From assembly GCA_023213395.1 (NCBI GenBank), contig CM041465.1:199213741-199277740 (forward strand): a stretch of 64,000 nt of DNA. Direction: 5' to 3'. Shown one piece after another: positions 1 to 25,861 of the stretch. Every line of letters begins with the position of its first letter. Position 1 is the first letter of the stretch. The translations under genes were made by a program, and so were the position numbers. A model generated the notes under the pieces. The model worked only from the letters and a program-made list of their open reading frames with translations, was not told the DNA's origin and ran no database searches. Source of the DNA: Cycas panzhihuaensis. Lineage: Eukaryota > Plantae > Cycadophyta.

Positions 1-980
1 GCTACTGAAAGAAGGCTGAGAAATCTGCCAAGGAGTTATAGAACAATGGGTTTAGAATCCCTGCTAATGGAGTTGAAGGAAACACCTACACTTTGAAGAT
101 GCTTGATGGCTGCCTGAGCAAGAAAACACTGAGATCTCTCCAAAGGGGCCCTCTCCAAGGTGTGTGAAGGGCTGGGAAGATGTCCTAGCCATACCAAAGG
201 AGAGCTGGGTGATGGAGGAGAGGTGCAGGTCCTATAGCAGTAGTGGAGCAGCAGGGAATAGTAGAGCAAAGAGCGTTTTTCCTTGAGAAGCATTCAAAAA
301 ATGAGTAAAAGATCCTAAAAATGAGTTAAAGAGGACTTAAATACCTAGCCCAAATCCTAAAACGAGTGATTAGGGTGTAGTTGGCAGTGAGTCAATCGCG
401 AAACAAGTGGAAGTTTTGCAATAAATGCGAAATTACCATGGTAGATTTTTTAAAAATAAACTTGAACAGTCGTCCCGCCATAAATTTTATGATCAGAATT
501 TACTACGATACCATGATATTCTACGATACATGACCGGGGCTAAATCGGCGGGAAGCCACTGGTCAGGCCAATGACAAAAGAGGCTAATGGGGGGCTAAGA
601 CACCTACCCGAGGGCAAACAAGCCAATAAATGAGACCAGAAGAGCAAAAATAGGATTCAAACGATGTGGCTAGTCAACTAAACGATGACGAATCATCACA
701 CGGGCAGAAGGTGACGCAAGCCAAATGGATCTTGGAGTAAGTAGGGCAGAATGCGGGAAGTGGAATGGCCACCGGGGTGCCATACTCACTAGGAATGTGC
801 CCCCGCTATAGTCGTCATAGGCTGAATAAGTGTAGATGAAGATAAGATCATCTACAAGGTCACAACATGTAAACATGCAAGCATACACTCATCTCAAAAG
901 AAAGCAATGATAAGGTGAGAAGCATACCTGCATTTACCTGAGTTAATAACTCTGTATCCATTCCCGGAAGCCAGGAAACA
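1..980 (-). repeat. 3' LTR of Tat element (partial; about 1.75 kb lies left of the window)
   Basis: Position 1 aligns with 14080; ends ...CCAGGAAACA at 980 (TGTTTCC on minus), same terminus as 15074. Confidence 0.93.
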
Positions 981-990
981 CTGCCCCCTT
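981..990 (-). promoter_or_regulatory. Polypurine tract of Tat element
   Basis: Minus strand AAGGGGGCAG directly precedes the LTR start TGT. Confidence 0.85.
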
Positions 991-1380
991 GGTAGTAGAG
1001 CCTCGCCGCTCAGAAGCTTGGTGCGATGGCGAAAGCTGGCAACACATGTGTATACAGATATATAAATCAAGACTATAATAGTAGGCAAGGGTGCTAGCGA
1101 GTGTCATGGCAGAATGCGTGGATATGAAAGTAGAGGTGGAGACAACATAGGGGTTGCCTATGCGCCACCTAGAAACCAACTGGAAGAATAAGAAAGGCGA
1201 GGGGGTTGCCCCCACCGTAAAAGATGCAGAGAGATGTGCATAATCAAGTAGAAGAGTGAGCAAAATTGGTAGTCGCCATAGTTTAACCTCATTAGCGGCT
1301 AGGTTTCAGAGGTGCGAATGGATCACAAGGCGATGCGTACGACAGCCTAAGCCTTGGGTGACAGAGAAACCAGATAAGTC

Positions 1381-1929
1381 TCAGGGACAGTCAGCAAGAA
1401 GAGGAAGGCGGTGCTCAAGGATGAGGCGAACGAGACCATCTGACTCAGCGTTGAGGGCCCAAGGGATATGCTGGATGTCAACAGACGAGAAATGAGCTAA
1501 GAGGGATCTGGTGGCGAAAGCAAGAGTTCTCAAGTGAGGGCATCGCACCTGGTAAACCTGGGTGAGATAGGACACCACAACTTGAGAGTCACAAAGTAAG
1601 ATGATAGATCCGTGATGGAAACGGAGAGCATCAGTAAGGGCTTCAATAACAGCTGTGTATTCGACTTCATTGTTAGTAGCCTCTGGGAGAAAGACCCCAG
1701 AGCATAGGAAATTATGTCCAGAGGGGCTGCGGAGAATCCACGTGGTAGTAGAAGGTCCAAGGTTACCGCGGCTTCCACTGTCGATAAAAATGTAGATGGA
1801 CATGGGTGACACAAAGTCCTGGTAGTAAATAGGCAGTGGTGGAGCAGAAGAGGAGCTCGAGAGATAAGCAAAAAGTGGCCATGAAGGGTAGGAGGACCTA
1901 GCAATGAGGCTACCCAGGGGTGAGAGCAA
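1381..1929 (-). CDS. Archaeal-type / plant RNase H1-like ribonuclease HI (aRH), stand-alone ORF; first ATG at 1803
   Basis: Motifs IFIDSGSRGNLGP, ATNNEVEY, CDSQVV, HIPWALNAESD correspond to DGASRGNPG / NNxAEY / DSxLV / HxxRxxNxxAD; four acidic catalytic positions present, frame open. Confidence 0.9.
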   Translation of the reverse strand: MLSPLGSLIARSSYPSWPLFAYLSSSSSAPPLPIYYQDFVSPMSIYIFIDSGSRGNLGPSTTTWILRSPSGHNFLCSGVFLPEATNNEVEYTAVIEALTDALRFHHGSIILLCDSQVVVSYLTQVYQVRCPHLRTLAFATRSLLAHFSSVDIQHIPWALNAESDGLVRLILEHRLPLLADCP

Positions 1930-2329
1930 GCAGTCTGATCACTATGTGAGAGCGGGCGGAGAAAAAGCATCCTGGAGCACCAAAAGGTCGCTTCGGGAAG
2001 CGAAACATGCCCTCGGACGAGGGAGCATTCCCTTTGGGGACCCTAGGAGCGAAAAAGGGCTGCAGAAATGAGTCCAGGGTGGCGAAACGAGCCAAACGAG
2101 TATAAACTCAGGCATACATGGGAGTGGCACGCAAAACGAGACAGAAGGGCCAAGCGAAAAAGTGCAAAAATGATGCGTCATAAATGCACATGCAAGAGAG
2201 TGCAAAAAGGCCATCAAAAGAGCACAACAGGTGACAGGGCCAGAAGGCAAAGGCAATCAGGGAAACAGGACGGTACCAACGGCTGTTGCGAGGCCAAAAA
2301 CGGAAGAAGCGCCCGTTGGGGCCCCTGCC

Positions 2330-2336
2330 TATATAA
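2330..2336 (+). promoter_or_regulatory. Candidate TATA box between divergent aRH and PMD genes
   Basis: CCTATATAAGG preceded by GC-rich sequence; TATATA core reads the same on both strands. Confidence 0.45.
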
Positions 2337-2495
2337 GGAAATCGAATGGAAAATGGATTCATTTTCACCAGCTCTCATGAGAAACCAGAGCCATCTCCTT
2401 ATGAAGCGGAGAGTCACCTAACTTTGGAGGCACGCAGGGAGAGATCAGACCATTGGATCGGGCGCAGAGAGAGCCAATGGGATCATCAGGACAAG

Positions 2496-4846
2496 ATGAC
2501 GACAGTGAGACCACATCCAGTGAGTAGATATCACAAACCCCGGCCCATTTTAAAGTTTTAATTTCATTACTTTTTATAGTCTTTTGTGTGATTTTTGGTG
2601 CCACTTATGGGCAATTGGAGGCCTCTCAGAGTCTGAATTAGACCTAGAAAGAAGTGGGACCTAGGCATTAAGGAGCCCTAGTCTTGGTCGGCCCCACGGG
2701 GTCCACTAGAATTTTTTTTAATTTTTCAGGCGTAAATCCCCTTTTGGGGGTTCTGGATCATCTGCGACAAAGATCACAATGCTGCGATCTTCGCCGCGAG
2801 GCCCGAATCGCCGCGGGACCCAAGCTAAACTTAGTGGTACCGCTAAGTTTAGCGCGGTACGAAGGTAGAAAAGGAGAAAAAAGAATAGAAGGGGCCATAA
2901 GGCCCCAAATCTCAAACAGAGAGAGTTGAGAGAGAGTCAGGAGCATTGATAACTAACATGAGGCTGACTTTGATTATTTTTGACGTGGACAGGCTGTCAT
3001 CATGGTGGATAACCATGAGAATGTAGGTATGGCTATGCTGAGCTACATAGAGATGACGTCCCGGGAGGACAAGGAGACCCTGCGGAGGTGTGGCCTATCC
3101 AAGGCCCTGAAGACACCTCAATTCACATTCGATCAGATACTTCTAATTGACATTGTATCCCATTGGGATAAGAGGAGGCACGTATTCCACTTACCTCAGG
3201 TAGGTGATGTGATGGTTACGCCGAGAGATATTCTACGGACATCGAGTACCAAATGACCGGGAGGCCAAGGACATGGGAGTGCCGCCAAGACCGAGGCAAA
3301 GACACAGAGAGGCAGCCCTATTCTTCATAGGGGCTAACAGGTGGAAGCGGAGAGGAGTTCTCCTCCAGACTATGCTGATGTCGAGGATTCCTCGGGTGAG
3401 GAAGCTGATTATATTATACATTTTGTTCCAGATTTCCTAGAAATAGAACTATAAGGAGATACCAGGTGGCTAGATAGATGCAGTGTGCCACTGCGAAGCC
3501 AGCGAGAGGATGGACTGGGCTATCCTGATAGTGGCGAACCTCGTCGCGCAGCTAGATACCATCAGGACGACCGGCAGAGGGGGACTATCATACAGCACGC
3601 TGTTATAATGATGGTTCTTTAATCATTTTATGGCAGTGGCACCAGCGGGGGGACCACACCCCATAGCAGAGTGGGCCATGATGGTCCACAAATGGTAGAC
3701 TCGACTGAAGGGGGTGGAGGACCAGGCCCACATCTGACGATCAGTGGAGGCGACATCGTTGGACCTCCTCACCCTGACAGACTATGTGGCAGATCCATAC
3801 AGATCGGTGAGGTGGGACAGTGATGACGAGGCAGGCAGAGCAAGAACGCCCATAAATGACGACGATGATGATGGAGGAGATGGGGCCAGCCCGTCACGAC
3901 CTATGGGGGAGACAGATCCTTCAGGGACAGCAGGAAGAACAGAAGGACCATCCAGGACTGCCGGAGGAGAGGCAGGCCCATCAGGGACAGCTGAGGAGAG
4001 CAAGGGACCAGTGACTAGGGCCCTCAGGCTGCAGATCGCGAGGAGATCCAGGGAGGTGAGAGTTGAGCCCATCCCTACAAGGAGGGAGGCCCAGCCGGAT
4101 GAGGTACCCGAGGATGAGGTACCAGCAGCTGGTAGAGAGCCAGGAGGAGAGGATGTCACACGAGCAGAGGAGCCGGCTGCCATGGCAGGTGAGGCCTTAC
4201 CATTTCCTAGTCGTTCGACAGCTAGGTAGATATTTGTTTTGATTTGATCATGGTATGTGGTGGGATATATACTGACACATGGCATGTTACATTAGTAGGT
4301 ACAGTAGAGGTCCGAAGACTAGTAGAGGCCATAGTGAGGGAGATGTTCCCTCAGGTGTATGCAGAGGGGCAACCACCCAACCAGGCAGAGGATGCGCCTA
4401 GATCGGCAGGTGCACACATGGAGGTATTCACCCCGTTAGCTAGGGCGAGAGACATCTGGGCTGCAGAGTCCTAGGAGCACATGACATTTAGGGGACAGAT
4501 GCAGCAAGAGCTGGATGAGGTGAGGAGTAAGAGGGATGAGCTACGCGAACGGGTCCAGGCTCTAGAAGCTCAGAGAGGAGCAGGTGGAGATATAGGGAGC
4601 ACAGTCTGGATAATGGTACTGGAGGAGCGCCTCCGAGAAGTGGAGCGCAAGAGATATCATATCCAGGCTAGATACGATCAGCTAGTAGATCAGGTAGTGT
4701 CGAGGTCAAGCAGGAGCAGGACATATACCCATACAGTGGCAACGACCCTGAGATAGCCATGTGATGAAGGGAGCGAGGCAGGGAGCTCACGGAGGCCCAG
4801 GAGGAGCCTCGGAGGGATGTGGTCCCTAGGAGAGGGATCACACTGA
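2496..4846 (+). pseudogene. Antisense plant mobile domain (PMD, aminotransferase-like) gene with two predicted introns (2520-2992, 4189-4298), acidic linker and coiled-coil-like C-terminus; disrupted by frameshifts and stops
   Basis: LRRCGLSKALKTPQFTFDQILLIDIVSHWDKRRHVFHLPQVGDVMVTPRDI matches the PMD N-terminal pattern (ALVERW..ETHTFHLP.GEMTITLEDV); MDWAILIVANLVAQL...STLL**WFFNHF (~3570-3630) matches the PMD W..A.LA.LY..L / LLQ.W..E motifs; both GT-AG introns restore frame. Confidence 0.8.
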
Positions 4847-5527
4847 CTAGGAGATGGTACCCCAGGAGCGGGGCAGCAGTAGAGTAAGACACATGTATAT
4901 GATTTGATAGGAAAGCATGGGCCTCTAGGGGGTCATATATAAAGTCATATGATTGTATCCCCCCTGCAAGGACACCAGCTTCCCATATGTATGATGTAAC
5001 AAATGATTTTGATGTATATATATATACGGGGTAATTGGAACCCCATTTTGACATGAGATGCTGTATATATCATGTGGTAGATAGCATATATATTTGTTTT
5101 ATATGTTATAAACGTTATATTGTAAATGTTTTATTATATGATGCATGTATTTCCTTCCATGCATAGCTATATATACCTAATAGGAGCACACACATCCACC
5201 ATGAGTAGGGGTGATAGAGAGGTGTGAGGTTAGAAATAAAGCGACATGCACGTCCATGGGGAAACATAGCGGAATTTGCGAAGAAAATAGCAGGTAGGAG
5301 AGGGGAGTAATGGTACTCCAAAGTATTGTCCTAATTGGGGGATGCCCAAGTAGGAAGACAAAAGGTTCCCGAGAGGATACGGGAATACGGGTTCCACGGG
5401 AGGCACCAGGAAGGAAGAGAAGAAGCCACCTCAAATTGCCATTCTACCCGTGGCTAGGAAGAATGGGGACAACCTAAGATGGTAGTTTAGGCTCATTTCA
5501 GAGCATGGCGAAGGGATCACCAAAAGA

Positions 5528-8500
5528 TCATGCATAAAACTTCTTAAGAAATCTCCCATTAATAGCTTTTTCAAATTCAAGCCCTTCTAAGGTGGCTATC
5601 CTATAAGAACCATTACCGAGGGCCTCGATAATGACGAAAGGACCAACCCATCATGGTTTGAATTTGGTCAAACGATCATGGAGATATTCGAGCTTGAGGA
5701 TGTGGTCCCTGGGAAACAAAGGATGAGAATGAAGATGTTTATCGTAGGTCCTTTGTGAGTGAGCTTTAGACGCTAGTTTAGCCTGATAAGTGGCTAAGCG
5801 TCTCTCGTCCAAAGCCTCGAGGTCCAATAGGCGAGCCTGACAGATAGACTTTTCGTCAATGAGACCTCAGAGGGAGACTCGTAAAGAAGGAATCTCCACC
5901 TCTAGCGGGAGTACCACCTCAGTAACGTAGACTAAGGAGAACGGGGTCATTCCCATGGTGAAACGGATAGAGGGACGGTAAGCCCACAAAGTGGAGGGCA
6001 GCTGAAGGTGCCAATCCTTTTGGGACTGAGCAACGGTTTTCTTTAGGATACTGACGAGAGTCTTATTGAAAGACTCCACTTGGCCATTTGCCTAAGGGTA
6101 GTAAGGAGAAGAAGTTTTGTGATAAATCTTGAACTTCTCGCAAAGCTCATCCTTCTCCTTATTACAGAAAGGGGTTCCATTGTTAGTGATTAGGACATCT
6201 AAAATCTCAAAATGGCAAATGATGTACTGGTAAATGAATGTGGCTATCGTTTTACCAGGAATTGTGATCAAGGGGATGGCCTCTACCCATTTGGTGAAAT
6301 ACTTTGTGGCAATCAAGATAAACTTGTGCTGTGACGACGAAGGTGGGGAGATAGCCCCAATGAGGTCGAGTCCCCACTTAGCAAAAGGCCATGGCAAAAC
6401 AATAGGGTGCAGGGCCTCGGAAGGCACATGGGAGATGTTAGAATGCTCTTGACATCACCGACACCTCAGGGCAAAAACATGGGCATCCTTGAAAAGGGAC
6501 GGCCAGAAATAGCCCATGCAAAGGATCCTCTAAGCCATAGACTGGCCCCCAAAGTGACCTCTACAAATACCATGGTGGCATTCATGGAGTATTTGGTCAG
6601 CTTCGCCGGCAGTGACGCTGTGGAGGAGGATCCCATCGAAGGACCTCTTGTACAATACTTCACCCACGAGGAAGTACTGCTTGGCAGAATTCTGGATGCA
6701 AGATCTAACTTTACTACTAGCATTGGGCGTTATTGCTGCTACGTGAGATACTGTACTATATCACCATACCACTCATTATCGATGAGTGGATGAGGAGAGA
6801 TGCCTTGAATTGTTAAGATAGATTCATCAGGGAGAGAGTCGTCGATGGGGGCACCAAAGGAGTTAGGGATAGGGGCGTCTGCGAGCTGCTCAGCCACTAC
6901 CATTCCCTTCTTTGATTTCCAGTTAACGATATGAAGGTCAAATTCTTGAAGCAGATGCCCCAATGACCACCCACCAAATCTGAACGAGTGAGCAAGTATT
7001 GCAAGGGATCGAATTGAACGATCACTTTGGTGGTATTGCCAAGCAAGTAGTGTCTGAACTTCTTGATTGCATGGACCAAGGAGAGACACTCCTTCTCGGT
7101 AGGAGAATAGTTAAGTTCAGCAGCCACGAGGGTACGGCTGATGAAATATATAACTCTCTTGGTTCCTGAGTCATCCTCCTGAGCTAACATAGCACCCAAG
7201 GATTCATCACTCGCCGAGGTGTACAGGACGAAGGGCCTATCGAATCGAGGAGGTGCCAGTGTAGGATCGGAAGCGAGGGCTTCCTTGAGTCCTTCGAAGG
7301 CCTTTTGGGTCTTGTCAGACCAGACAAAAAGAGCTTCCTTCTTCAATAGGTTCGTAAGGGGTTTAGCGCTTACAGCGAAGTCCGCTAAGAAGCGCCTGAG
7401 AAAACCGAGCCTACCTAGAAATGACTTAATCTGTCGTTAGGTCCTAAGAGGCGGCATGTCAAGGATTATCTTGACCTTATCAGGATCAATCTGAATTCCT
7501 TGTTTGGACACAAGAAACCCAAGGAGTTTGCCTGAGGTAACGGTAAACACGCACTTGAGCAGATTTAAACTAACGTGATACTTGCGGCATCGTGAAAAGA
7601 TGGGCCGCAAGTTAGAGGGATGATGGGCCCTGACACGGGAGAGGCCCATCATATCATCCATAAAGACCTCCAATGTGTTATCAATGAGGTCGTGGAAGAT
7701 GAAATGCATGGCTCTTTGGTAAGTAGCACCTACAATTTTAAGGCCAAAGGGCATTGCCTTGTAGGCAAAGGTACCCCAAGGTGTAGTGAAGGTCATCTTG
7801 TGGTGGTCCTCAGGAGAAATCTGAATTTGGTTATAGCTGGAGAAGCCGTTCATTAAAGACATAACTTTAAATCCAGTAGTATGATCAATAATTTGATCGA
7901 TAAAGGGGAGCGAGAAGTTGTCCTTAGGACAAGCATTGTTAATGTCGCGGAAATTGACACATATACAAATTGCTCCGTTCTTTTTAGCAATGGGGATAAT
8001 ATTGGAGACCCACTTGGGGTAGTCAATGGAAGTAATAAGTCCAGCGTCCAAAAGCTTCTCAACCTCCATCTTAATGGCGGCTGAGAGCTTTGAGTGAAGG
8101 GGACGCTACTTCTGGCGCATGGGGTGGGTACCAGGGATGGTGGTAAGATTATGGGCGACAATGGAGGGATCAATTCCCTTCATGTCAGCATAATCCCACA
8201 CGAAAACATCCTGAAACTCTTGGAACAAAAGGGAGTACTCCCTTACCTCATCAGAAGAACATTCTAACACAACCTTAATGACCTTGCCAGGGGCCAAGAC
8301 TACGTCTTAGGTTGCCCCAATGTACATGGCATTGCCCTCCTCGAAGTGGAGAGGAGCAAGGTCAACAGGAGGAGGTGGAATAGGAGATGGGATCGGATCA
8401 GCAAGTGTGAATCCAACCACAAGGATCTTTTGGTGACCAAGCTTGTAGTGGCCAAAAGGCGAGTTAGGCGCAAAGCCCGCTAGGTGCTCAAGTAGGGCTT

Positions 8501-11500
8501 CATCATCCTCGAGGTAATCCACCCCATGGATGACCTTACTTCAAGTAGATGAAGCACTAGAGGGAGTGGAGGCAACAGGACCATGGTAGTCGTCAGGTTG
8601 CCCAACTTCCTTACGAGACTCTGAAGGAGAGTCAAAAAGAGGCTCCTCGGAAAGAGTGAAAGGTAGTTCTTCAAAGCCATCACCTGTAGGGGGTGATGAA
8701 GGAGAAGAACTGACGATGGGTGAGTCAACATGAGCGATGACATGTGACACGTAGGAGTGGCTAGCCTCACTAATGAAAGAGGTTCTAGATGGAGATCTAG
8801 AATGAGATGGGTATGACCTACTGGTGTGGACGCAAGAGACGGGGTAAAGACAATCCTCATCCTCATCATATGACTCATTGTCACTAAACAAAGCAAGGTA
8901 CCCATAGCTCCCAACGCCAATAGGGGTGAACCGCATGAGACTAGGGGAAGAAGATACAGGATCTTCTTCAGATGGATTAGATATACCAATAGAGCAAGTC
9001 GAGGCATGTGTAAAAGGACCTCGGTTTGTCGAATTGGTAGAACAAGTTTGTTTGGTAAGTAGACGTTCGTGGGGAATCACTCTCATTTGCCCATCATGGA
9101 TGAATTTAAGTTGTCCCCAAAGAGTCGAGAACATGGCTCCCATTTGGTCGGGCCATGGATGACCTAGAAGAAGGTTATAGTCAATGTCAACATCGAGGAC
9201 CACTACATCGGTAAGAACAGTCTTGCCCTCAAGGATGAGCAGAATCGCGACAGATCCCAAAGAGGTCTCGCTACTGTCATAACCTTGGCATCGCCATGGA
9301 ATAGGGTCCAAGGCGGAAATACCAAGCTCTTACATGACACGCAAGGGCATGGTGTTCACGGAAGAACCATTGTTGACAATAGTCCTTCGAAGGGTACAAT
9401 CAGGGGTATCGATAGTGATAGTGAATGGGAAGTTCCATTGATGTTCCCTTTCACATGCGGGAGGAAGGTCCCTAAGATCAAATGAAATAACGGGTTCGCA
9501 ACTTTGGGTAATGCCCAAAGTGTGAATAGGTGTGTTGTTTAATCCTAAAGCTTCTAGGAGGAGGGTCCGCTGCTCAGGACAACTCCTGAAAATGTCCATC
9601 AAGGACATTCCTGCAGCAACAGTATGAAGCTCGTCCATGATAGAGAAGGGCTTACCCTTTGCGGTAGGCTAGGTAAGTGCCCTTCGAAAATCGTAACGAC
9701 CCAGGTACACAGGAATGGCCTTGGGGAAGAGAGGTATTTCCAGAGGAGGGTTCTCCGGAAAAGGGTTGAAAGGAGCAAAAGAAGAAGAAGCCCCTGCTGC
9801 TCCCTTTGCGGCCTGAGACCGCGTAAGGGCATAAGAAGGAGTTGCCTCAAGTAACTGGATCATCTTCTTCCCCTTACTTCAGGGTTGCGAAGGTGATAGG
9901 GTACAATATCTAGGGGAACAAGAGGAAGAGAATGAATCCCTAGCGCCCTTCCCTTTATCGCGAGAAGGACATGAATTAGGCGATCTTCCTCGGTTCCGGT
10001 TATTCTTGGTTTGGGCATTGCGATCGCGTTCCCTGTGTTTAGGGAACGGATCCTTGTGAACTGGTTAGTTCAAATTAGGCCTTGAGGCCCGTTTAGGGGA
10101 AGTGTCACATCGAGGGGCGTCCTTAAGATGCTGGGCCCTGCAACGCGAGTCATCATGGAAGTACTCCCCATGAATGGAGCACCACTTCTTCTCAAGTGGG
10201 GGATCTGGCCTTCTCGCTTGAGAGGACTTGGCATTTCCATTCCTAGGGAGAGGAGCTTGAGTTATTTTTTAGATGTTAGGGATGAAGGGGCTTGAAGCTT
10301 AAGCTCCTTCATCGTACGCTCGAATGAGCATATGGCTAATGTGAGAGGGTCTAAGGTCCTCTCAATCGGGTGAGAGGAAGACTTGGCAGGTTATGAAGGT
10401 TTGGTATCTTTGGTTGAAGGTGGTGCCTCACGTCGTTATGAGGGCTTGAGAGGTTTCTTTAGACCGGCTTGGATCTCAATAGCCTCCAATGCCAAGCACT
10501 TGGCGATCGCGGAGTCGCATGTGGTCGCCCCCATTTTAAGGACTTCCACATACACTTCAGGACGAAGTGCATTAACAAAGAGATCTCGCTTCAACTCCCC
10601 AGGCAATGTTACCTTAGTGGAGTGAAGCAAGTCATGGAATCACCGCACAAAGTCACGATTCATCTCATCGTGACCTTGTTTGAGCGAAAGGAGTGATTTC
10701 ATTTCGCTTTTGAATAGATGGGCTACATTAAAGTAGTTGATGAACTCGTCCACCAATTGCTGGAATGAATAAATGGAGTGGGCAGGGAGACAGTAAAACC
10801 ATTTAAGGGCGTCGCTCTGTAAGGATCGTGGAAACAATTTCATTAGAATGTGGTCGTAAGCCCATCAATCGATGCATACCATAGAGAAGTTACGTACATG
10901 CTCTGTTGGGTCTTGCGACGAAGTTCTGTCGAATCTAGGAACTTTAGGGGGATGAGGCGACAGATTGGTTCTTAATGCCTCAATGGATAAAGGTGTTGAT
11001 CTATAGTCCATGAAGGGACATGCCCTTGCCTAGGCTATAGGATCAACGAATGACGTAGCAAGAAGTGAACAAGGAGCGGACAGGGGTGGCACACTCATCC
11101 CTCCTTGAGGAAACGCCCCTTGTTGAGAGGGGACTTCAAGATAAGTGCCTTGGAAGAGAATTGAGTTCCCTTGTGAAGACACGACAAAAGGGCTAGATGA
11201 TGGAAAAGACAGATGTGGAAATGGGTTTTGCCCATATGGGCCACCTGTAGGTGGGGTGACCCCATATGGGTGTAGCAGATCTACTCCATAAGCTGGGAGG
11301 TGGCTTCCCCTACCCTGGCCCCAAGGTTGAGAAGTAGACCCTGGGGGAATATAAAAGGAAGCCCCAACAGATTGATTTTGAGGGTGTGTGGGAGTGGGTC
11401 CCACACAACTAATGATTAGAGGGTTAGTAGGACTAGTAGGCCTACTAGGGAAAGTATGTGCCACATTGGGAGATGGCACATTTGTTTGGCTAGGGAAGGG

Positions 11501-12172
11501 TATGCTAACCTTCAACTGAGGAAAAGACATACCACGGGAAGATCCTGAAACACTAGGACCTTGGTGAGGAATAGAAGGTGCAACATGTGCCCCCACAATA
11601 GAAACAGGAAAGGAGCGGGATACATGCATAGGCACGAAGGGATTGGTTGTCACAGGAAGAGTAGATGAGGATGAGGCATGCGGGGGAGGAACAGAAGAAG
11701 AAGAGGCTCCTCTATAAAGAGCATCCTCAAACCATCTAGGATGCAGTTAGAAATGATCTGCGTAATGGCACTCGTTGAGAGCTTCAACTACATCGACAGG
11801 AGGGGTGCCTACATGCTCGTAAGGGGTAGTTGGGACCTCGAACGAAGTAGATCCCTCAGGACGTTCCTCATAAGAGTCACCAACTGAGTAGTAAATATCA
11901 AGAGGAAAGGATCCTTCTACCACATGGGTAGAGGGATGGATGTCGAGCGGGTGATGTTGGTCACCCGGGTAGTAAATGGGATCATCACCCTCTTAGGTGG
12001 ATCTCGGAATAGAAGAAGGAAAATTATGGGTTTCCAAAGTTGAGGTGTGGTAGGTCTAATCAGAAGAGTATCCCTCCATAGTCAAATCAGAATCTGACAA
12101 AGGAAGAGGACGATACTCGGGGTCTTCTAACAATGGAGGCAGACCGCATAAACGACGAGAGAAACGTCGCAT
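5528..12172 (-). pseudogene. gag-pol of Tat element (Gag, CHHC zinc knuckle, protease, RT, RNase H, integrase), many stops and frameshifts
   Basis: MRRFSRRLCGLPP start at 12172; KLFPRSLQSDALKWF (gag); WCSIHGEYFHDDSRC (~10140-10190); IVNNGSSVN (PR); YNQI, FTTPWG, MPFGLK, FMDD (RT); LYTSAS, NYSPTEKECL (RH); WGLDLIG, SSPYYP, VGPF, NGRFLKKFYA* (INT). Confidence 0.93.
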
Positions 12173-12315
12173 GCAAGGTCAACCAACACTGTTAGGTAAA
12201 GGAAAGGGCGATAAAGGCACATGCATTGGGGAATGCCCAATGGAGAGAACGAAGTAGGAAAAGAACCACAAAGAGGTAGCAAAACCAATGGAAGAGAGCA
12301 GAAACTAGCTGGCAG

Positions 12316-12333
12316 TCCCCAGCATGGTCGCCA
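12316..12333 (-). promoter_or_regulatory. Primer-binding site, tRNA-Arg type
   Basis: Minus strand TGGCGACCATGCTGGGGA, 1 nt from the LTR end; resembles the Tat/Ogre PBS TGGCGACTC(C/T)(A/G)CTGGGGA. Confidence 0.8.
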
Positions 12334-12334
12334 G

Positions 12335-15074
12335 TGGACACGCGTCTACAGGATAGCTACCTAACTGAGTAGGAATGGTAAGAGTGGTCGATGGTGCAAT
12401 TGAGAAAAGACCTACAAGTAGGGCAAATACCACGCAGGGCACCCCGTACGCCGGAGCATAAGTTCGAGACCTGCAAATGGAATCTAGCTACCCGGAAGTG
12501 GTTCCCCACTTCAAACAAGAGGAGAAGAGGCGTAGGGTTAGCCTGGGTTGACCTAAGGGAAGGATCCTCCCACCCTTAGATGGCCAGAAGGGGAAGGAGA
12601 GAACCCTTCAAGGGTTTCCCTAGAGTAACGGGAAAAAGGAAAAAGTAGGCAAATGGTGTCCTACGAACGGGATCCGCTCGATTACCGGCTAAGTGGAGAA
12701 CCGAAAGAACATAAATGGAACAACCAAAGGGAAGAGGTTATTATGTGTGTAAGAAAACTAACCAAGTAAGTAAATGATGAAGTGAGAGGGAAGTATGCAA
12801 GGCAAAAAGGGGGGGAAAGGTGAGAGGGAAGGTTTCCTATGACTTTTTCCTATAGCAAATAAAATGCAGGCGATAAAGTAAGCAAAGTATAAACTAAGAC
12901 AAAGGTTGATTTCCCTTCTCTTTCCGATGAGCTAATTACTGCTACGTAAAAGAACTCAAAAGGAAAATAAAAGTGGTGAAGTGGAGCGAGAGTGTGTACC
13001 CAGAATAGAAGCGTGACGAAGTGACGACGTTCACACGAGACACTCGAAGTTGCTCCACAAGGCATAGCAGACGTGAAGGGTTAACGGTAGACCGGAATGT
13101 GGGGCTCCCTTACCTTCTCCGAAAATAGTACTAAAGTACCAAGAAAAGAAAGGAAAGGAACAAAATGCTAACAATAAATGAGATATGAAAGTAAAGCATA
13201 AATGGAAGCACTTACCCGCGAAGGAAGAAAGAGGAATGGATCCTTTGCATCTTCCAAATACCTGCAAGTAAATGACAATATCCCCCTTTGTAGAGAAAGG
13301 GTACTAGCATACAATAGAGAGTCCTAACAATACATGTACATATGAAGCACGTATAAACTTAAATGCATGCACGTTAGTATTCAATATTACAACGATAAAC
13401 TATGGCAGAAAATAACCAAAGTCAAAGATAAATGAACCGATAAGCCTCAGAGTAGCCCACCTCCCACAAGGAACAACCCTACTCTCCCCTAAGAAGCCAT
13501 GCAGTAGCGAGGGTAAAGCTATGCAAGAGGGGTGGAAATGGAGATAAAAGAGTTGAAAAGAGCCCAAGAGGATCTACAGCAAGCCGGGGTGCTACAGGGA
13601 GCAAACTGAATTGCCGGGGAAGGAGTTGAGCAAGGGACAAGTAACTGGGGCTTATGTGAGTTGCTTGGATTAAGGTGCAAGCCCTCAAACCAGCGCTGCA
13701 ACGTGTGACAGCGCTGATTTCAGTGGCTAAAAATAGCCTAACAAACCCTTGTTTCATTGCCAAGAATAGCACGGGGCAAAAGGGAAGGTTTGGGGGGCAA
13801 AGAGCCACCTGAGGAGCGTGGAAGGTGGTGCAGAATCCACCCAGCTCTCACCCAAACACTATGCAACCCCTCTTTGCCACTGCCTTGAGCAAGAAACACA
13901 AGAAAGGAGGCACTAATGGCAGAAATAAGATAGCCCAAAACAAAGGAAGAGCAACCTCCAAAGACCAAAGTAAGGAGAGCTAGAAGTGACAAGCAAAATG
14001 GGGCATAAATTAGACAAGAAAGTATCTTAAACCAATGAATACTTGAGAAAACGAAGGGAGACTCTTGCCTCAGTCAAGAGCTACTGAAATAAGGCTGAGA
14101 AATCTACCAAGGAGCTGTGGAATAGTAGGTTTGGAACCCCTGCTAATGGATTTAAAGGAAACACCTACACTTTGAAGATGCTTGATGGCTGCCTGAGCAA
14201 GAAAACGTTGAGATCTCTCCAAAGGGGCTCTCTCCAAGGCATGTGAAGGGCTGGGAAGATGTCCTAGCCATACCAAAAGAGAGTTGGACATTGGAGGAGA
14301 GGTGCAGGTCCTATAGCATCATTGGAGCAGCAGGGAATAATAGAGCACAGGGTGTTTTTCCTTGAGAAACATTCAAAAAATGAGTAAAAGATCCTAAAAA
14401 TGAGTTAAAGATGACTTAAATACCCAGCCCAAACCCTAAAACGAGCGATTAGGGCGCAACTGGTGGTGAGTCAATCGCGAAACACATGGCAGTTTCGCAA
14501 TAAATACAAAATTGCAATGGCAAATTTTTTAAAAACAAACTTGAACAGTCGTCCCACAGCAAATTCCGCGATACCACAGAATTTGCGGCGGTACTGTGAT
14601 ATTTGCGGCGGTATGTGACCAGGGGCTAAATCTGGCCCAGACAGCCAGCCTGGGCTGTGGGCCAATGACAAAAGAGGCTAATGGGGGGCTAAGACACCTA
14701 CCCGAGGGTAAACAAGCCAACAAACGAGTCCAGAAGAGCAAAAATAGGATTCAAACGATGTGGCAAGTCAACCAAACAATGACGGGTCATCACACGGGCA
14801 GAAGGTAGCGCAAGCCAAATGGATCTTGGAGTGAGTAGGGCAGAATGCAGGAAGTGAAATGACCACTGAGGTGCCACACTCGTTGGGAATGTGCCCCCAC
14901 TATAGTCGTCATAGGTTGAATAAGTGTAGACGAAGACAAGATCATCTACAAGGTCACAACATGCAAATATGTAAGCATACATTCATCTCAAAAGAAAGCA
15001 ATGATAAGGTGAGAAGCATACCTGTACTTACCTGAGTTGATAACTCTGTATCCATTCCCAGAAGCCGGGAAACA
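12335..15074 (-). repeat. 5' LTR of Tat element (2740 bp)
   Basis: TG...CA termini, adjacent PBS, right 1 kb repeated at 1-980. Confidence 0.88.
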
Positions 15075-18000
15075 GATTACAAGCTCATATTAAAGAACAT
15101 AACAATATTTCCAAATGAAAGTTGGTGATAAAGAACATCATTGGGTCATAAGACCCTATATTTATAGTCAGGACATTGGGCAAGTCTATTATCAACCGAC
15201 AATGGTATTAAGAAATACTATTTAAAAACAAGCATAAAAAATACATACATATCAGTTGATATCGGCTGTTGGTGGTCCCATGGCATTCTAAAGCATCGTG
15301 CACACTCTTTAATATAATAAATGTACATTATCTCTAACATTCTCCTCCATAATATTCTTTTTATATGAGTCCAATCTTATCTTTGAACTTATGAAAATTA
15401 ATTTTCCCAAGTTCCTTTATAAATATATCTGCCACATGTTCTTTAGTGTTATACTAGACTAATTCTATTTCTCTTACCTAAACTAATTCCCTTATGAAAT
15501 GATGTCAGGTTTTAATATGTTTTATTCTTCCATGGAATATTGGATTACATGTCATCTCTATTGTTCTCTAGTTATCATACCAAATTTTAGTAGGACCATT
15601 TTGCATTACTTAAAGATCATGAAGTGACATTATAACCAAACTATTTTATATGCACCTAGTACTACTTTATATTCTACTTCTACAGTCGATAAGGAGACTA
15701 TATTCTATTTCTTGGTACTCCAAGCTATGGAGGTTGATCCCAAATTGAATTTATATCATGATGTAGATTTCCTATTATTAATGCATCCTACTCAATCTAA
15801 ATTTGCATACCCAATTAAACTAAAATTTATTGAAGATTTGTAGTGTAGTGCAAAATCTATGGTGCCTTTTAGATATCTAAGAATTCTCTTAGCATCTTAC
15901 CAATGTGTAGTCTTAAGATCATGTATGAATCTTGATGTAATACTAACTGAATGCATAATTTATGGTTGTGTTGATGTCAAGTAAATCAAGCTTCTATTAA
16001 ATTACCTATAGAGTATAGGATTAATTGAACCAGAATCATCAAGTTTGGATAATTTAAATCTAACTTCTTTAAGTGTAGCTAACGCTTTGCAATCACTCAT
16101 CTTATACTTTTGAAGTAAGTCTAAGGTATACTTTCTTTAAGAGACAAATACTCCATCTTCATCTTACTAAACTTCTAATCCTAAGAAGTAGTGTATAAGA
16201 CCTAAGTCTATCATCTCGAATTCCTTACACATATCTTCCTTATATTTTTGTGATAATTTGGAGTCATTTCCTATGTAGACTAATTCATCAACATATAGAC
16301 CCACAATGAGTATAGAATCTCCCTTAATTTTGATAAATAAATTGGAATCTGATTAGCTTCTTTTGAATCCTTAATCTCTAAAGTATTCGTCGATCCTAAA
16401 GTACCAAGCTCTAGGTGCTTGTTTCAGTCTATATAGGGGATTTTTGAGTTTATATACTTTGTCTTCTTCCCCCTTGACTTTGAAACCTTTTGGCTAATAA
16501 AAATAGATTTCTTCTTCAATGTAACCATTTAGAAATATACTTTTGACATCCACTTGGTGGATGTTCGATCCCTTTTGAGCTGCTAGACTTAGCATCATAT
16601 GAATAATTTCCATTCTTGCAAAAGGAGTAAATGTTTCACTGTAATCAATGCCTTCTTTTTTTTAGTAACCCTTGGCTACTAACCTTTCTTTGTATTTATC
16701 TATTGATCCATCTGATTTAAACTTAGTCTTATAAACCCATTTTATCCTAATAGATTTCTTATTTAAAGGTAGATCAACTAGCTCCTAAGTGTCATTTTTT
16801 ATAATAGAGTTATATTCATCTTGCATGGCATTCTTCCATCCATCCTTGGTATTTACCTCTTCAAAGGTACCTTTGACTTCCTTAATATCTGACTGGTAGA
16901 AATCATCTTCTTTGAATACTACATATATGCTTATAATAACTTTTCTTTCTTTAGGGATCATAGATCTAATCGAATTTGGAAACCTCACAATATCCTATAA
17001 ATTTATATTTAGTGTTTTTATCATCAAATTTTATCCTCTTCTTATCTTGAACGTGAGCAAATGTAAGGTAACCTAATACTTTTAAATAGTATATGCTTGG
17101 TTTGTATCTAGTCTAAGTTTGTTCTAGTGTAACCCACCTAAGGGCTTTAGTGGTATACCTATTTACTAAATAGACTATAGTATGAATAGCTTCTACCCAA
17201 AGTTTATGGCCTAATTTCTTATCTTTGAGCATGCACCTAGTCATTTCAACTATGGTGTGATTCTTCCTTTTAGCTACTCCATTATATTATGGAGTCTAAG
17301 GATTAGTATATTGTTTTCTCATGCTATGATAAGTATAATAGGCATTGAATTCATTAGAGATAAACTCTCCCCCATTATCTGATCTTAGGGAGAGTATTTT
17401 ATGTCCACTTTAATTTTTTACAAAGGTTTTGAAGTCTATAAAACATTAGAATGCATCTAATTTAAACTTCAAGAAATATACCCATGTTTTCCTTATAAAA
17501 TCATCAGTGAAGGTGATGAGGTATCTTACTGCATCTAAAGATTGAACATCCATAAGACTACATAGGTCTATATAGATTAACTAAAGTGGACCTTTAGCTC
17601 TATAGCTTCCATCTAAAAAGCTTTCTCTATGTTGTTTACCAAGAAGACATTCCTCACATATTTCTTTATTTGTTACAATTGGAGGTAATCCTTCCACTAT
17701 ATTCATTCTTTTCATTAGGGCCAAACTCTTATAGTTTAGATAACTAAATGTTTTATGCCATATATCACTATCAGTTTTAATGGAGGTCTTTAATGTATAG
17801 TTGTCAGATAGGAGAATGACTAGTTTAAATAGTCTATCACTAGTCCTTTACCTTTAGCTATAATAGCTTTGTTCAACCTTTTATCTTTGATTGTGCATTC
17901 ACCATTATAAAAAATGAGCTTATAACCTTGTTCCATCATCTGGCCTATTGATAGTAGATTCTTCTTGAGTGTTAGGGCATGGAGGATATCATCAATGCAT

Positions 18001-21000: not shown

Positions 21001-22184
21001 ATCCATATAGTACAACAAACACACAAAGCTTATGCAAAGGTAGATTTTTACAAATCTTAGTGTTAATATTGAATAGAATAATTCTATTACAAGCTGTCTA
21101 CGTAACTTTAGCTCTACTGAGATACTTAATGCTAAGGATAAATTCTTTATAATAAGTGTTGAAACTTGCAAGAAGTATAGAAGAGAATGAAAATAAAGAC
21201 TAAATCTTGAAGATTATTGTTTGTATTCTACCTAAATACTAGCAAGTAATATTATCTGAAGACTGAACAACTACATAAAGGTCGTACCACTATATGGAGG
21301 TCATAAGACCCAAATAATTAATAGAAACACCAAAGAGATACACTAAATAATCACTGGAGGGAATGTGACCTTATATAGGCAGCCACACTAAGAGAAACAA
21401 GTTATATCCTTTATTTTTATAATAAGGTAGGTGGGGTTTCGGTAGACAAAGGAGTGAGGCAACTTTTGGGAGTTATATCTCTACACTATGGTGATAATTT
21501 TCTAAACTGTCTACTTCACTACAATCTAGGTTCAATAAGGAGTGAAACAAGTAGCCATATGCTTACATTATGTTCATCCATTAAAGTGCACTACTCTGCC
21601 AAAGTATAGTGATGCTAAGAATCCTGAAAAGTATGATGCAAAATCATTAAAAAATGATGAAATGTGTTTTGAAACGTTAGTAAATTTCTTCTAAAACACT
21701 ATTATGCTACAAGTGACTATAAATTCTACAAAAGATAGTTAATAGATGGAGTATTCAAGCAATAATATAATATCACATAAGTATAAGTAATATTAACATG
21801 AAAATCTATATAAAACTATCAAAAATAAAGTAAATATTTGAAATATATCAGGTAATATGCTATTGTAATGCTCCATAGATTAAAAAAGTCAAGCTCTGGT
21901 ACCAAATGAAGGCTCAAGGATAGAGTAGAACTACATTACAAGTTCATATTGAAGAACATAACAATATTTCTAAATGAAAGGTGGTGTTAAAGAATATGGG
22001 TCATAGGACCCTATATTTATAGTCAGGGCATTAGGTAAATTTACCATCGACCAACACTAGTATTAGGAAATACCATTTAAAAATAAGTATAAAAAATGCA
22101 TACATATTAGATGTTGGTAGTCCTATAGTATTCCAAAGCATCATGCACACTCTTTAATATAATAAATGAATATTATCTCTAATA
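15075..22184 (-). mobile_element. Ty1/copia LTR retrotransposon A (degenerate); 3' LTR interrupted by the Tat element
   Basis: LTRs 15075-15339 (first ~28 bp displaced beyond the window) and 21907-22184; PBS TGGTACCAGAGC at 21893-21904 (tRNA-iMet type); purine tract at ~15340-15348. Confidence 0.9.
15345..19310 (-). pseudogene. copia A gag-PR-INT-RT-RH pseudogene
   Basis: IPKFRGSNF (gag start), WYINLGCSTHMT (PR), LRSDNGGEF (INT), WKNAMQDEYNSIIKNDT and GLYVDEL (RT), RIKHIK and VADIFIK (RH); numerous stop codons. Confidence 0.9.
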
Positions 22185-24018
22185 TAAATGGGCCAATCCT
22201 TTTGTACTTCAATTTATTACATGTTCCTTGAGGAAACCTTTCCCTCCTCAACTAAATCACTGCCAAGTTATCAATTAAGAATACTTTATGCCTCATAGCC
22301 ATGTTAATTATTGCTTTATATCTTTTATTATTATCTTGTAGTTTTTGTCTCACCTTATCGCATACCTATTATATATGCTATATAATTGTCTTTACATCAT
22401 CACTCACTATATCCTTTGATGGTAGTTATCCTAAATCTAAAACTTCCTTTACATTTCAACCATAAATAATCTAAAATGATGACTTTAGTGTTAACTTATT
22501 TAGAGACTTATTATATGTAAACTCAACCTATGCCAATACCAAGTCCTACTAATTGGTGGGATTTTCCTCCACAATGCATCCCAACATATTCCCCAAAGCT
22601 CTACTCACCACTTTTGTTTACCTATATATAGTAGGGCCATATAAATAGCACCTAAATGAGATCAGTTATATTGCAATACCCTTGAAGGGAGTAATCTCCT
22701 AGTCATATATAATAACAATGATCTTTAAAAGGTAGTCCACTCTAAGGATTACATGAATATATAGGCTTTATGGTTGATACACAACCTCCTTCTTATCCAT
22801 ATGGGATATTAAGAAGAGAGAAGAAGTAGAAGATATAAGAGAAGATAAGAGAAGGTAAGTTAGGGGTTAGATTCCTAACAAGTCTCACCCCTTTAAAAAT
22901 GATTTACCCTCAAAGCTTGTTGATCTTAAGATGTTCTTAGACAACTTACTCATTCTTCCAAGTTACATCTTCTTTTGAGAGTTGTTTCCATTTAATGAGA
23001 TACTCAATGATTTGCTTGTATTATAGATGTTAGACTCTTTTTCCAATAATACATTCTAGAATGAGTTGAAGTCATCCCTTCTCATTTAATATAGGTAGAT
23101 CAATTTAAACTTGTACCTACTACCCAATGACCCCCTTGAGATATGAAACATAGAAAGCATTATGGATCCTTAATGGTGGTGGTAAGTCTAAGGCATATGC
23201 AACTTCATCAATCTTCTTTGAGGATTTTATAAGGTCCATAGAATCAAGGTTGTAATTTATGTTGCCCATCTTTTTTAAGAGAGGATTACTTATACGATTA
23301 TAACCATAAGTATACTTGATTACCTAATTGGAATGCTTATTCATTTCACCCTTTATCTACTTATTGTTTCATTTGATTTTATGTAAGATAAAGATTATTC
23401 TTAAGTATCTTAAAGACCTCTATTATTTGATGGATGTGTTCATCAACTACTAACCTTAGAGCTAAGTATGGTATATTTTTTTAGTGTGGGTAGTTTATAA
23501 CCATATAATACTTCAAACAGAGTCATTCTTGTTGATGCATAATAGTTTGTATTATAGTATCACTCTACTAAAAAAAACTAATGATGCCACTAAGCTTGCT
23601 TATCTGAAGCATAACAATAAAGGTATCCTTCAAGGCACTTATTCACCACCTATAATAAGCCTCAATGATGTATTTACACATAAATAATCATAATTAGATT
23701 AATGAAAGGTCATGTATATTTATTAATCAAACGCATCCTTCTATGGATAGATTATAAATATATTCTTCTATGTAATATTAAATATCATTCATCATTGTTA
23801 ATCAATTATCCTTTGGATATTAGGTCTTTGACCAAAACTATCTCCTATTTATGAATGTGACTAGCCTAGGTCATCTCAAGTGATATTATAGCCATAATCT
23901 TATAATTAAGAAAATAAATAAATATACATTATTTATATATATAAGCTACTAAAACATTAATCTACCAAAATATATATTTGTCATAAGCATTACACAGATC
24001 TACATATATCTGTATGTG

Positions 24019-24120
<102 letters not shown>

Positions 24121-24613
24121 TGTATGTATATGTAGATTAGTCATTCAAGGTGAGGCATAACAATGCATATCTGTTGAAGCTATAATACTAAATTGCATAA
24201 TAAATACTATAGTTATATCCATTTAAGCATAGTCTACCAACTAGTTCACCATAGAAGTCTCTAATTTGGGTACTTTACTATCCACTTAAAATCCCTATAA
24301 TCACTAGCCTAAGGTGTCTCTCCTTCTAATGTAATCATTATTACAAACTTATATAAAGTGGCATCTTGATTTCCCATGTAATTGCCTCAGCAAACCACTT
24401 ACTAGGGTGTATTTGGCTGCTACTTGAAGGCCAAAATAACTCACTTAAATAAGGGCATCTCTACTTGCCCACATAAAAAACTTAAACATAGGGCCAACAT
24501 GGGTTATTACTTGAACTCTACAAAAGCCTAGATGTTAGATGTCCTAGCTACCCACTCTAATATATAAAAGCTCAAACACAAAGGTGTTTGTAGTTGTTAT
24601 TATAGAGTTACTT

Positions 24614-25395
24614 ATATTATTTAAGAGTAGTAATGGTTCGAAGAAAAGATTGCCATTCTGGCTTCTATCATAGAACATCCTGATTGACGTTGAGCTTGCT
24701 TCTTCGTATTGACACCCTATATCAAGCTTATATTTGTATTATTTGGTTACTACATGCTTATCACTACAATTCCATATAATATTATGATTCTCATTATCAT
24801 CACCGCAGTCATCCATCCATGCAATTCATCAGGTAAATCAATAGCATTGCCATTACACTGAGTTTCCCTTATATTAAATGGTGTATAAAGTCATCAAGTA
24901 TAATATATAGTGTTATGTTGCCAGCATCACCATCAATGCTAGTTGCTTTAGTATTATACAACATATTAAGTTATCTTAATATATAACTTAAATATGTCAT
25001 CTCATACATTATTTTAGAGTAGTAATGGTTCAAAGAAAAGACTATCATTCTAACTACCATCATGTTACAACTTGGCTTGCATTGATCCTACTATTTCATA
25101 TTAACATCATGCATCAAGCTTATGTCTATATTATTCAGTTACTATGTGTTTATCACTACAATTCTATATAATATTATGACTCTCACTGTCATTATTATAG
25201 TTGTTCATGCAATTCGTTAGTAAATCACTAATTCTGATATTATAGTAAGTCACCCTTGTATTAAATAGTGTATAAAGTCATCAAGCATAGTATATAATAT
25301 TACATCACCAACATCACCATTAATATTAATCACTTTAGCATTATACAACATATTAAGTCATCTTAGTATTTAATTCAAATATGTCATCTAATATA
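24614..25395 (+). repeat. Diverged tandem duplication, two units of about 390 bp
   Basis: AGAGTAGTAATGGTTC.AAGAAAAGA occurs at ~24623 and ~25016; ATTATACAACATATTAAGT occurs at ~24954 and ~25340. Confidence 0.85.
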
Positions 25396-25509
25396 GTCAC
25401 CTTATAGTTATAGACCATATATCATATTATATATTATATCATACTATCTTATGTCATGCCAAGGTTATAATATAAATAATATTATATGCATACATACATG
25501 CATACATAC

Positions 25510-25861
<352 letters not shown>

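What the first reader, a model, noticed from the sequence alone, without database searches (positions are those of the whole stretch)
1381..4846. Divergent two-gene accessory cassette (aRH <- -> PMD) in the 3' region of a Tat retrotransposon
Seen: after the integrase stop (5528) the element carries an antisense PMD gene and then a sense RNase HI ORF. Their 5' ends face each other across a ~0.6-1 kb GC-rich spacer containing a strand-symmetric TATATA (2330-2335). Known: Tat elements carry an extra aRH at lineage-specific positions, PMD ORFs occur in some Ty3/gypsy elements, and host PMD proteins MAIN/MAIL1 act in transcription and silencing control. Inference: this is an independently transcribed module driven by an internal bidirectional promoter, pairing an RNA:DNA hybrid nuclease with a chromatin/anti-silencing factor. 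That would be an accessory-gene system analogous to those of complex retroviruses. I do not know of this head-to-head arrangement being described, but cannot search for it.
Basis: partly seen in the sequence, partly recalled or inferred. Interest (0 to 1): 0.8.

Follow-up and report, generated by a model that had tools for sequence, protein, structure and literature searches.

The report
Head-to-head RNase H and PMD genes
An old plant jumping gene keeps a second RNase H enzyme as a separate gene placed head to head with a backward-facing, spliced plant-mobile-domain gene, and both are likely read from the stretch between them, which would explain how such elements make an enzyme they likely need but do not carry in their main protein.

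Summary
The anatomy is real. In a decayed Tat Ty3/gypsy element (LTRs 87% alike), an archaeal-type RNase H ORF (1803-1381, sense, D-E-D-D intact) lies 3.7 kb past the integrase stop, head to head with an antisense PMD gene that is broken in this copy. The native RNase H lacks its first catalytic Asp and pol has no second RNase H, so the aRH is likely the essential replication nuclease, not an accessory. This fits the gymnosperm TatIII / post-integrase type, where both ORFs are known. I did not find this order, or a promoter between them, in print, but could not see the figures. The family is very high-copy. In one probable RNA run, two contigs lack a 110-nt GT..AG intron that joins the PMD-side frame to a coiled-coil-like exon in frame. 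Summed contig depth there is about 36 times higher on the cassette than on gag-pol (DNA runs 0.5-0.6); this is only a hint. The strand of the aRH-side RNA, start sites and dN/dS were not shown. The TATA context favours PMD, and the spacer is not especially GC-rich. The anti-silencing pairing has no support. New variant of a known kind.

The parts
1..980 (-). 3' LTR, runs off the window
   Evidence: 87.3% identical over 995 columns to 14080-15074; begins TG; K2P 0.126
981..990 (-). Polypurine tract next to the 3' LTR
   Evidence: sequence
1381..1803 (-). Stand-alone additional RNase H (aRH) ORF, 140 aa, archaeal-type RNase HI, D-E-D-D present
   Evidence: Pfam RVT_3 9e-15; PDB 4e19 E 1e-17; matches the in-pol aRH of P0060 residues 607-706
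1804..3001 (.). Spacer between the two start codons (1198 nt), inferred internal promoter region and 5' leaders
   Evidence: covered by DNA and probable-RNA contigs
2330..2365 (+). TATA box (TATATAA) with initiator-like element, predicted PMD start near 2361; the core hexamer also reads TATATA on the minus strand
   Evidence: start site not shown
2520..2729 (+). Predicted T-rich 5' leader intron of the PMD gene
   Evidence: donor-like start read from the sequence, T-rich acceptor; X24/X7 depth ratio falls to 3.4 per 1000 at 2510-2670 against 32-43 just upstream and 18-30 just downstream; no joint seen; one X24 contig runs through it unspliced
3002..4188 (+). PMD coding region and acidic linker, broken in this copy (frame change between 3232 and 3273, in-frame stops)
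4189..4298 (+). 110-nt GT..AG intron
   Evidence: X24 joint 4186-4297 skipping 110, and a second contig with the same net loss; 0 in X7 for that joint; removal keeps the frame
4299..4846 (+). Last exon of the PMD gene: coiled-coil-like stretch and short basic tail; in-frame stops at 4472 and 4754 are likely decay
   Evidence: weak hits (E 0.006-0.08, below cut-off) to several helical or coiled-coil families; frame joined by the intron; X24 depth falls after about 4925
5528..9329 (-). pol: protease-like region, RT, native RH lacking its first catalytic Asp, integrase; no aRH inside; broken by stops and frameshifts
   Evidence: the protease was read from the translation, Pfam gave no hit there
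10370..12250 (-). gag (approximate bounds), broken
   Evidence: Pfam Retrotrans_gag E 3e-7
12316..12333 (-). PBS-like site starting TGG one base after CA
   Evidence: sequence; tRNA identity not tested
12335..15074 (-). 5' LTR, about 2.7 kb (inner end inferred from the PBS-like site)
   Evidence: outer end agrees with the edge of a flanking repeat whose other copy is at 21935-22185

Best explanation
This is an old, broken copy of a high-copy Tat retrotransposon of the post-integrase (TatIII-like) build, in which an RNase H gene sits outside pol, head to head with a spliced antisense PMD gene, and both are likely transcribed outward from the spacer between them, the RNase H likely serving as the element's replication nuclease supplied in trans. 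Shown: gene order and strands, intact aRH active-site residues, loss of the first catalytic Asp in the native RH, no aRH in pol, family-wide presence of every part, and + strand splicing of the PMD gene in one probable RNA run. Inferred: the TATA at 2330 starts the PMD mRNA near 2361; a minus-strand start in or near the same block makes an aRH mRNA; the aRH protein enters the particle by binding Gag or RT and cuts the RNA template while the native RH serves as a tether; the PMD-coiled-coil protein is a nuclear regulator whose task is not tied to the aRH enzyme. The antisense direction lets the PMD gene keep its intron through retrotransposition, since the LTR-driven genomic RNA reads the other strand.
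For: aRH lies 3.7 kb past the integrase stop with an opposite-strand gene between, so it cannot be part of Pol. P0060 and P0061, which carry aRH between RH and INT, match pol on both sides of that domain and match 1423-1737 with the domain itself. Native RH has Ser where Ty3 RT has its first Asp; PMC10508981 reports such decay in all aRH-bearing Tat structures, and the neighbouring-clade protein P0031 also lacks that Asp and runs from RH straight to INT. Probable RNA run X24: GT..AG joint of 110 nt in two contigs, keeping the frame. 649 X24 contigs lie on 900-5700 and 774 on 1-15200. Mean summed depth is 421 on 1015-5070 against 11.7 on 5578-12168, ratio 36; the same ratio is 0.49 and 0.59 in DNA runs X1 and X4. 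X24 depth is also low on 4925-5700 (13-55) and on the 5' LTR and leader bins (2-53), which LTR-driven RNA would cover. TGTA occurs 8 times on + and 0 times on - in 4757-5250, as expected at a + strand 3' end. An own internal promoter for an antisense ORF is reported for maize Grande (PMC7264820).
Against: All RNA evidence is one run whose kind is a guess, held as contigs; the tool states that contig depth cannot rank genes or show start, strand or level. No strand for RNA on the aRH side. No depth dip at the TATA (X24/X7 ratios 24, 32, 43 per 1000 across 2027-2509). One X24 contig spans 1990-2439 and on to 2706 without splicing, at depth 14.7, near the gag-pol background, and another reaches from 1904 to 2296 and beyond. 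The minus-strand reading of the box is weaker, and the aRH leader of about 500 nt holds 9 upstream ATGs in this copy. The aRH 3' region shows no TGTA strand bias (1 and 1), and its X24/X7 ratio is about a third of that over the ORF. The open aRH frame in this copy is weak evidence of selection: pol has 7 stops in 816 codons, which leaves roughly a 30% chance of none in 140. No single contig spans the cassette, so its order in sister copies is shown only piecewise.
Confidence: 0.57

Rival explanations
1. Only PMD has an internal promoter. The aRH is made from LTR-driven RNA, by env-like splicing to an acceptor just before the ORF or by internal initiation on the genomic RNA.
For: Pyrimidine-rich minus-strand acceptor-like sites at 1942 and 1819; the TATA context is better on +; spliced env-like sense ORFs are known in Bagy2 (PMC7264820).
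Against: X24 depth on the 5' LTR and leader bins is 2-53 against several hundred over aRH; no LTR-to-aRH joint among 15 of 299 joints shown, and no such loose end among the 6 X24 rows shown. The unlisted rows were not seen.
Confidence: 0.18
2. The RNA over the aRH side is + strand: a long first exon or upstream read-in of the PMD transcript, starting near the 3' LTR, so aRH is covered in antisense and is expressed only weakly by another route.
For: A + strand TATATAAA lies at 1059-1066; depth runs on through the 2330 box; contigs bridge it.
Against: The X24/X7 ratio at 1061-1382 is 5-7 per 1000 against 14-23 over the ORF; the 2330 box has canonical initiator spacing for a start at 2361.
Confidence: 0.13
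3. One reading: the two genes form a coupled accessory module in which aRH clears RNA:DNA hybrids in chromatin and PMD counters host silencing.
For: Both regions are high relative to gag-pol in X24, more than a packaged enzyme might need; PMC5418596 speculates on anti-silencing for MULE-borne PMD.
Against: The decayed native RH gives aRH a plainer job. The two parts vary independently across Tat lineages: lineages I and II have aRH without eORFs, and lineage VI has Tr28 instead of PMD (PMC4408406). I found no functional test of a Gypsy PMD in the passages read.
Confidence: 0.1
4. A chance nest of unrelated insertions in this one copy.
For: The copy is old and broken; no single contig spans the cassette.
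Against: All bins are covered by tens to hundreds of thousands of contigs in runs under three organism labels, at depth of the same order as pol; contigs bridge aRH start to spacer (1787-2189) and spacer to PMD start (2893-3020); both ORFs are known traits of TatIII.
Confidence: 0.02

Closest known systems
TatIII (REXdb, PMC6317226) = lineage III (PMC4408406) = structure #3 / post-integrase, clusters Tat H and Tat I (PMC10508981, PMC13468544)
   Same: aRH after integrase; antisense PMD eORF in the 3' part; decayed native RH; size about 16.8 kb (inferred) within 12.7-17.3 kb; LTR identity 87% near the 89-93% means given for structure #3.
   Different: PMC4408406 places aRH at the C-terminus of Pol with the PMD eORF at the 3' end and gives lineage III a PMD without coiled coil. 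Here PMD lies between INT and aRH, head to head with it, and an intron joins it to a coiled-coil-like exon. PMC13468544 calls the pol-versus-separate-ORF question controversial and has 0 hits for PMD, promoter or antisense. Figures were not visible and may show this order.
Maize Grande gene23 and Retand/RIRE2 antisense 3' ORFs (PMC7264820, PMC11963269)
   Same: Antisense accessory ORF between pol and 3' LTR; own internal promoter and high transcription reported for gene23; retroviral accessory-gene analogy already drawn.
   Different: Those encode Transposase_28 and similar domains, and aRH stays inside pol; no sense enzyme gene faces them.
Ogre PMD-coiled-coil eORFs (lineages IV and V of PMC4408406; 431 antisense 3' hits in PMC6317226 supplement)
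   Same: PMD followed by a coiled coil, antisense in the 3' region.
   Different: Ogre keeps aRH between RH and INT; an intron inside the eORF is not mentioned in the text I read.
Host PMD proteins MAIN/MAIL1 (PMC5418596)
   Same: Share the PMD domain.
   Different: They belong to clade PMD-C, Gypsy PMDs to PMD-A; clade not tested here, and their silencing role cannot be carried over.

Membership tests
Ty3/gypsy Tat clade | LTR pair with gag, RT-RH-INT order | tested here: met
Ty3/gypsy Tat clade | Additional archaeal-type RNase H with DEDD core | tested here: met
Ty3/gypsy Tat clade | Native RH catalytically decayed | tested here: met
   first Asp absent against Ty3 RT; one old copy, but neighbouring-clade P0031 also lacks it
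TatIII / structure #3 | aRH after integrase and absent from PR-RT and RH-INT positions | tested here: met
TatIII / structure #3 | RT groups with REXdb TatIII or Tat H/I references | tested here: inconclusive
   No labelled references were available. In a quick tree of 114 rows (113 of 120 hits plus the window) the RT pairs with unnamed P0002 (99) and sits outside the 68-row clade (96) that holds all 27 rows with an aRH-like hit in the same protein; its nearest other rows are an unnamed 15-row clade.
TatIII / structure #3 | Antisense PMD eORF in the 3' region | tested here: met
TatIII / structure #3 | PBS to tRNA-Arg or tRNA-His; 5-bp TSD | not testable with these tools
   PBS-like TGG site seen, no tRNA set; the 3' flank is outside the window
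TatIII / structure #3 | Gymnosperm host | not tested
Ogre / Retand | aRH between RH and INT | tested here: not met
Bidirectional promoter gene pair | Head-to-head 5' ends within about 1 kb (criterion recalled) | tested here: met
   start codons 1198 nt apart; leaders would bring the starts closer
Bidirectional promoter gene pair | Divergent transcription starts on both strands | tested here: inconclusive
   + strand shown by splicing; minus strand and starts not shown

The most novel reading that the evidence does not exclude
Post-integrase Tat elements run reverse transcription with an RNase H made in trans from its own internally promoted gene. One symmetric TATA core fires both ways to co-express this enzyme and an intron-bearing PMD-coiled-coil regulator, well above gag-pol, giving a retroelement with a two-gene second transcription unit that could stay on while the LTR is silent and serve other elements.
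Probability: 0.3. Interest if true: 0.75.

Novelty: new variant of a known kind. Interest (0 to 1): 0.5.

Why it matters
PMC10508981 asks how an aRH outside pol can function, and PMC13468544 calls its place (in pol or separate) controversial. This layout settles the second point for this family and gives a concrete, testable answer to the first: an internal promoter region shared with the PMD gene. Structure #3 makes up mostly 12-47% of aRH-bearing Tat elements in Pinaceae (1.6% in one poor assembly) and 68% in Cycas, so the arrangement could be common in very large genomes. An intron inside the PMD eORF would also mean that ORF-based surveys have clipped these proteins.

Tried and rejected
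No host genome was held, so no copy collection and no dN/dS. aRH search by word index: 0 of 302 candidates. Metagenome scan with aRH: 2 loci of 223 stretches, 32% and 42% identical, not sister elements, not used. Viral contig scans with P0139 and P0126: nothing. Search with P0125: 2 proteins of 7998 scored. P0123 was dropped from the PMD argument as a repetitive chance hit with no PMD. No RNA holder was listed; X24 came only as a same-label addition. RAD-seq run X21 (154 reads) was uninformative. A second predicted leader intron (2857-2992) was not shown by X24. Other X24 joints (1796-1866, 1904-2296, 2893-3020, 3169-3303, 3547-3633, 3836-4712, 4480-4714) lack clean GT..AG ends on either strand and are read as diverged stretches of sister copies, unproven. 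A simple heptad count on the last exon was not decisive (best 0.43 hydrophobic at a/d), so 'coiled-coil' rests on weak Pfam hits and the known PMD-CC build. The careful RT tree did not finish. Earlier-findings look-ups by words, relatives and sequence gave nothing. No fold or complex prediction was run.
Full report
Setting. The first 15 kb of the window is one LTR retrotransposon on the minus strand. Its LTRs (1-980, cut by the window edge, and 14080-15074) are 87.3% identical over 995 columns, K2P 0.126, so the copy is old. A PBS-like site at 12333-12316 puts the inner end of the 5' LTR near 12335, giving an LTR of about 2.7 kb and an element of about 16.8 kb (inferred). Pfam finds gag, RT, RH and integrase in Ty3/gypsy order, and integrase stops at 5528. 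Pol carries 7 in-frame stops in the 816 codons of two aligned stretches. No host genome was held.

The two genes. The ORF 1803-1381 (140 aa, same strand as pol) is an RNase HI: Pfam RVT_3 E 9e-15, best solved relatives 4e19, 3u3g, 4h8k and 3hst at E 1e-17 to 3e-11, far above E. coli-type entries, with all four acidic residues aligned. Two Pol proteins that carry aRH between RH and INT (P0060, P0061) match the window's pol on both sides of that domain and match 1423-1737 with the domain itself, so the aRH is absent from pol and present only here. The native RH has Ser in place of the first catalytic Asp of Ty3 RT. The PMD gene is on the + strand and is broken. Pfam missed it in whole frames and gave E 0.0015 on 3237-3800. 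A search of 1.84 billion representatives with 3002-3253 returned 5 proteins. Of these, P0121 (73% identical) and P0125 carry PMD (E 3e-5 and 4e-24), P0122 and P0124 are short close relatives without a Pfam hit, and P0123 is a repetitive chance hit that I dropped. P0125 matches 2984-3238 and 3492-4088 in order, and P0121 spans the frame change between 3232 and 3273.

The spacer. The start codons are 1198 nt apart; GC is 49.5%, no higher than the PMD region. TATATA at 2330 is the only one in the spacer; 6% of Markov shuffles of the whole spacer contain one. On + it reads TATATAA with an initiator-like A 31 nt on; on - it reads TATATAG with a pyrimidine patch and a weak YR about 34 nt on. So the box looks built for PMD, and use in the other direction is possible but unshown.

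Family and RNA. 20 of 24 listed runs hold part of 1100-5300, under 14 coded organism labels; none is on record as RNA. I laid 5 of the 24. X1 and X4 gave 349,003 and 326,256 contigs covering 30 of 30 bins of 1-15200, and X7 gave 51,458 covering 30 of 30 bins of 900-5700. The cassette is therefore a family trait, though no contig spans it whole. Run X24, guessed to be RNA and added by species label, shows a joint skipping 110 nt with GT..AG ends at 4189-4298, a second contig with the same net loss, and 0 for that joint in X7 (15 of 50 joints shown). Removing that intron joins the PMD-side linker frame to the last exon in frame. This makes X24 very likely RNA, fixes the PMD gene's strand, and gives a PMD, acidic linker, coiled-coil-like protein. 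Summed contig depth in X24 averages 421 on 1015-5070 and 11.7 on 5578-12168 (ratio 36; lowest cassette bin 78, highest gag-pol bin 19), against ratios of 0.49 and 0.59 in X1 and X4. Relative to X7 it dips at the observed intron, at the predicted leader intron near 2520-2729, and beyond 4925. The tool warns that contig depth cannot rank genes or show strand or starts, so this is a hint from one run. Against the simple bidirectional model, depth does not dip at the TATA, two low-depth contigs reach across or into it, the aRH leader has 9 upstream ATGs in this copy, and nothing shows the strand of RNA on the aRH side.

How it most likely works. With the native RH decayed, reverse transcription needs the aRH (inferred, in line with PMC10508981). 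It cannot be translated as part of Pol, because an opposite-strand, intron-bearing gene lies between. RNA is high over both genes and low over the LTR, leader and pol, so the simplest source is the spacer, firing outward. PMD transcription from it is well supported; aRH transcription from it is likely; one shared TATA core is possible. How aRH reaches the particle and what PMD does are untested.

What is known. PMC6317226 (passages; supplements 4 and 5): TatIII of gymnosperms has aRH after INT, 12.7-17.3 kb, antisense 3' eORF in 18% of 39 elements. PMC4408406 (passages and sections 5, 6, 11; supplement list, search and table part 1): lineage III has aRH at the C-terminus of Pol and an antisense PMD eORF at the 3' end, with the coiled coil only in later lineages. 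PMC10508981 (whole main text; supplement search and part 2 of 3): structure #3 has aRH in a separate ORF in conifers, Cycas and Ginkgo (its text says upstream of pol, the later paper says after integrase), and it asks how this can function. PMC13468544 (abstract, results, section 3.6, legends part 1, term search): calls the point controversial, never mentions PMD, promoter or antisense. PMC7264820 (parts 1-2 of 3) and PMC11963269 (passages): antisense 3' ORFs, the own promoter of Grande gene23, and the retroviral analogy. PMC5418596 and PMC9289625 (passages): PMD clades, function unknown. Steinbauerova 2011 and Gomez-Orte 2013 were not read, only seen cited. Nine searches listed no paper whose title, abstract start or read passages describe the INT, antisense PMD, aRH order or a promoter between them. 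Figures are not held, and the structure schemes in PMC4408406, PMC6317226 and PMC10508981, and two large supplements of PMC6317226 that could not be read, may show it. Lineage placement by tree is inconclusive for lack of labelled references.

Verdict. A real feature and a new variant of a known kind. The parts are known for TatIII. The head-to-head order, the intron joining PMD to a coiled-coil-like exon, and the hint of cassette transcription well above gag-pol are what this adds, and they make a published open question directly testable. Interest 0.5.

Noticed in passing
window 2824-2853: Near-perfect 30-nt palindrome in the predicted PMD 5' leader; 2790-2870 folds at -34.3 kcal/mol, z -3.2, 0 of 200 shuffles as good. 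An X24 contig changes strand at 2824/2902. It may be a protein-binding site or an RNA hairpin.
   Followed up: partly
window 15076-15340 and 21935-22185: The Tat element inserted into another repeat; a second copy (82% identical) lies 6.9 kb away and marks the LTR edge.
   Followed up: partly
protein P0126: A database protein joins an unrelated N-terminal part (shared with P0127) to a Gypsy-type PMD; possibly a host exon spliced into a PMD eORF. The identity of the N-terminal part was not tested.
   Followed up: no
window 29400-29900, 36150-36860, 41260-41890, 47070-47360: Old fragments of other RT/RH-coding elements, 24-37% identical to Tat Pol queries.
   Followed up: no
window 23990-24140 and 25470-25720: Long (TA)n microsatellites flanking a stretch with a roughly 390-nt tandem duplication (24613-25393).
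   Followed up: no
window 48805-49104 and 55553-55852: Direct repeat 91% alike and 6.7 kb apart, possibly the LTRs of another element.
   Followed up: no
window 1059-1066: A second strong plus-strand TATA-like word between the 3' LTR and the aRH stop.
   Followed up: partly
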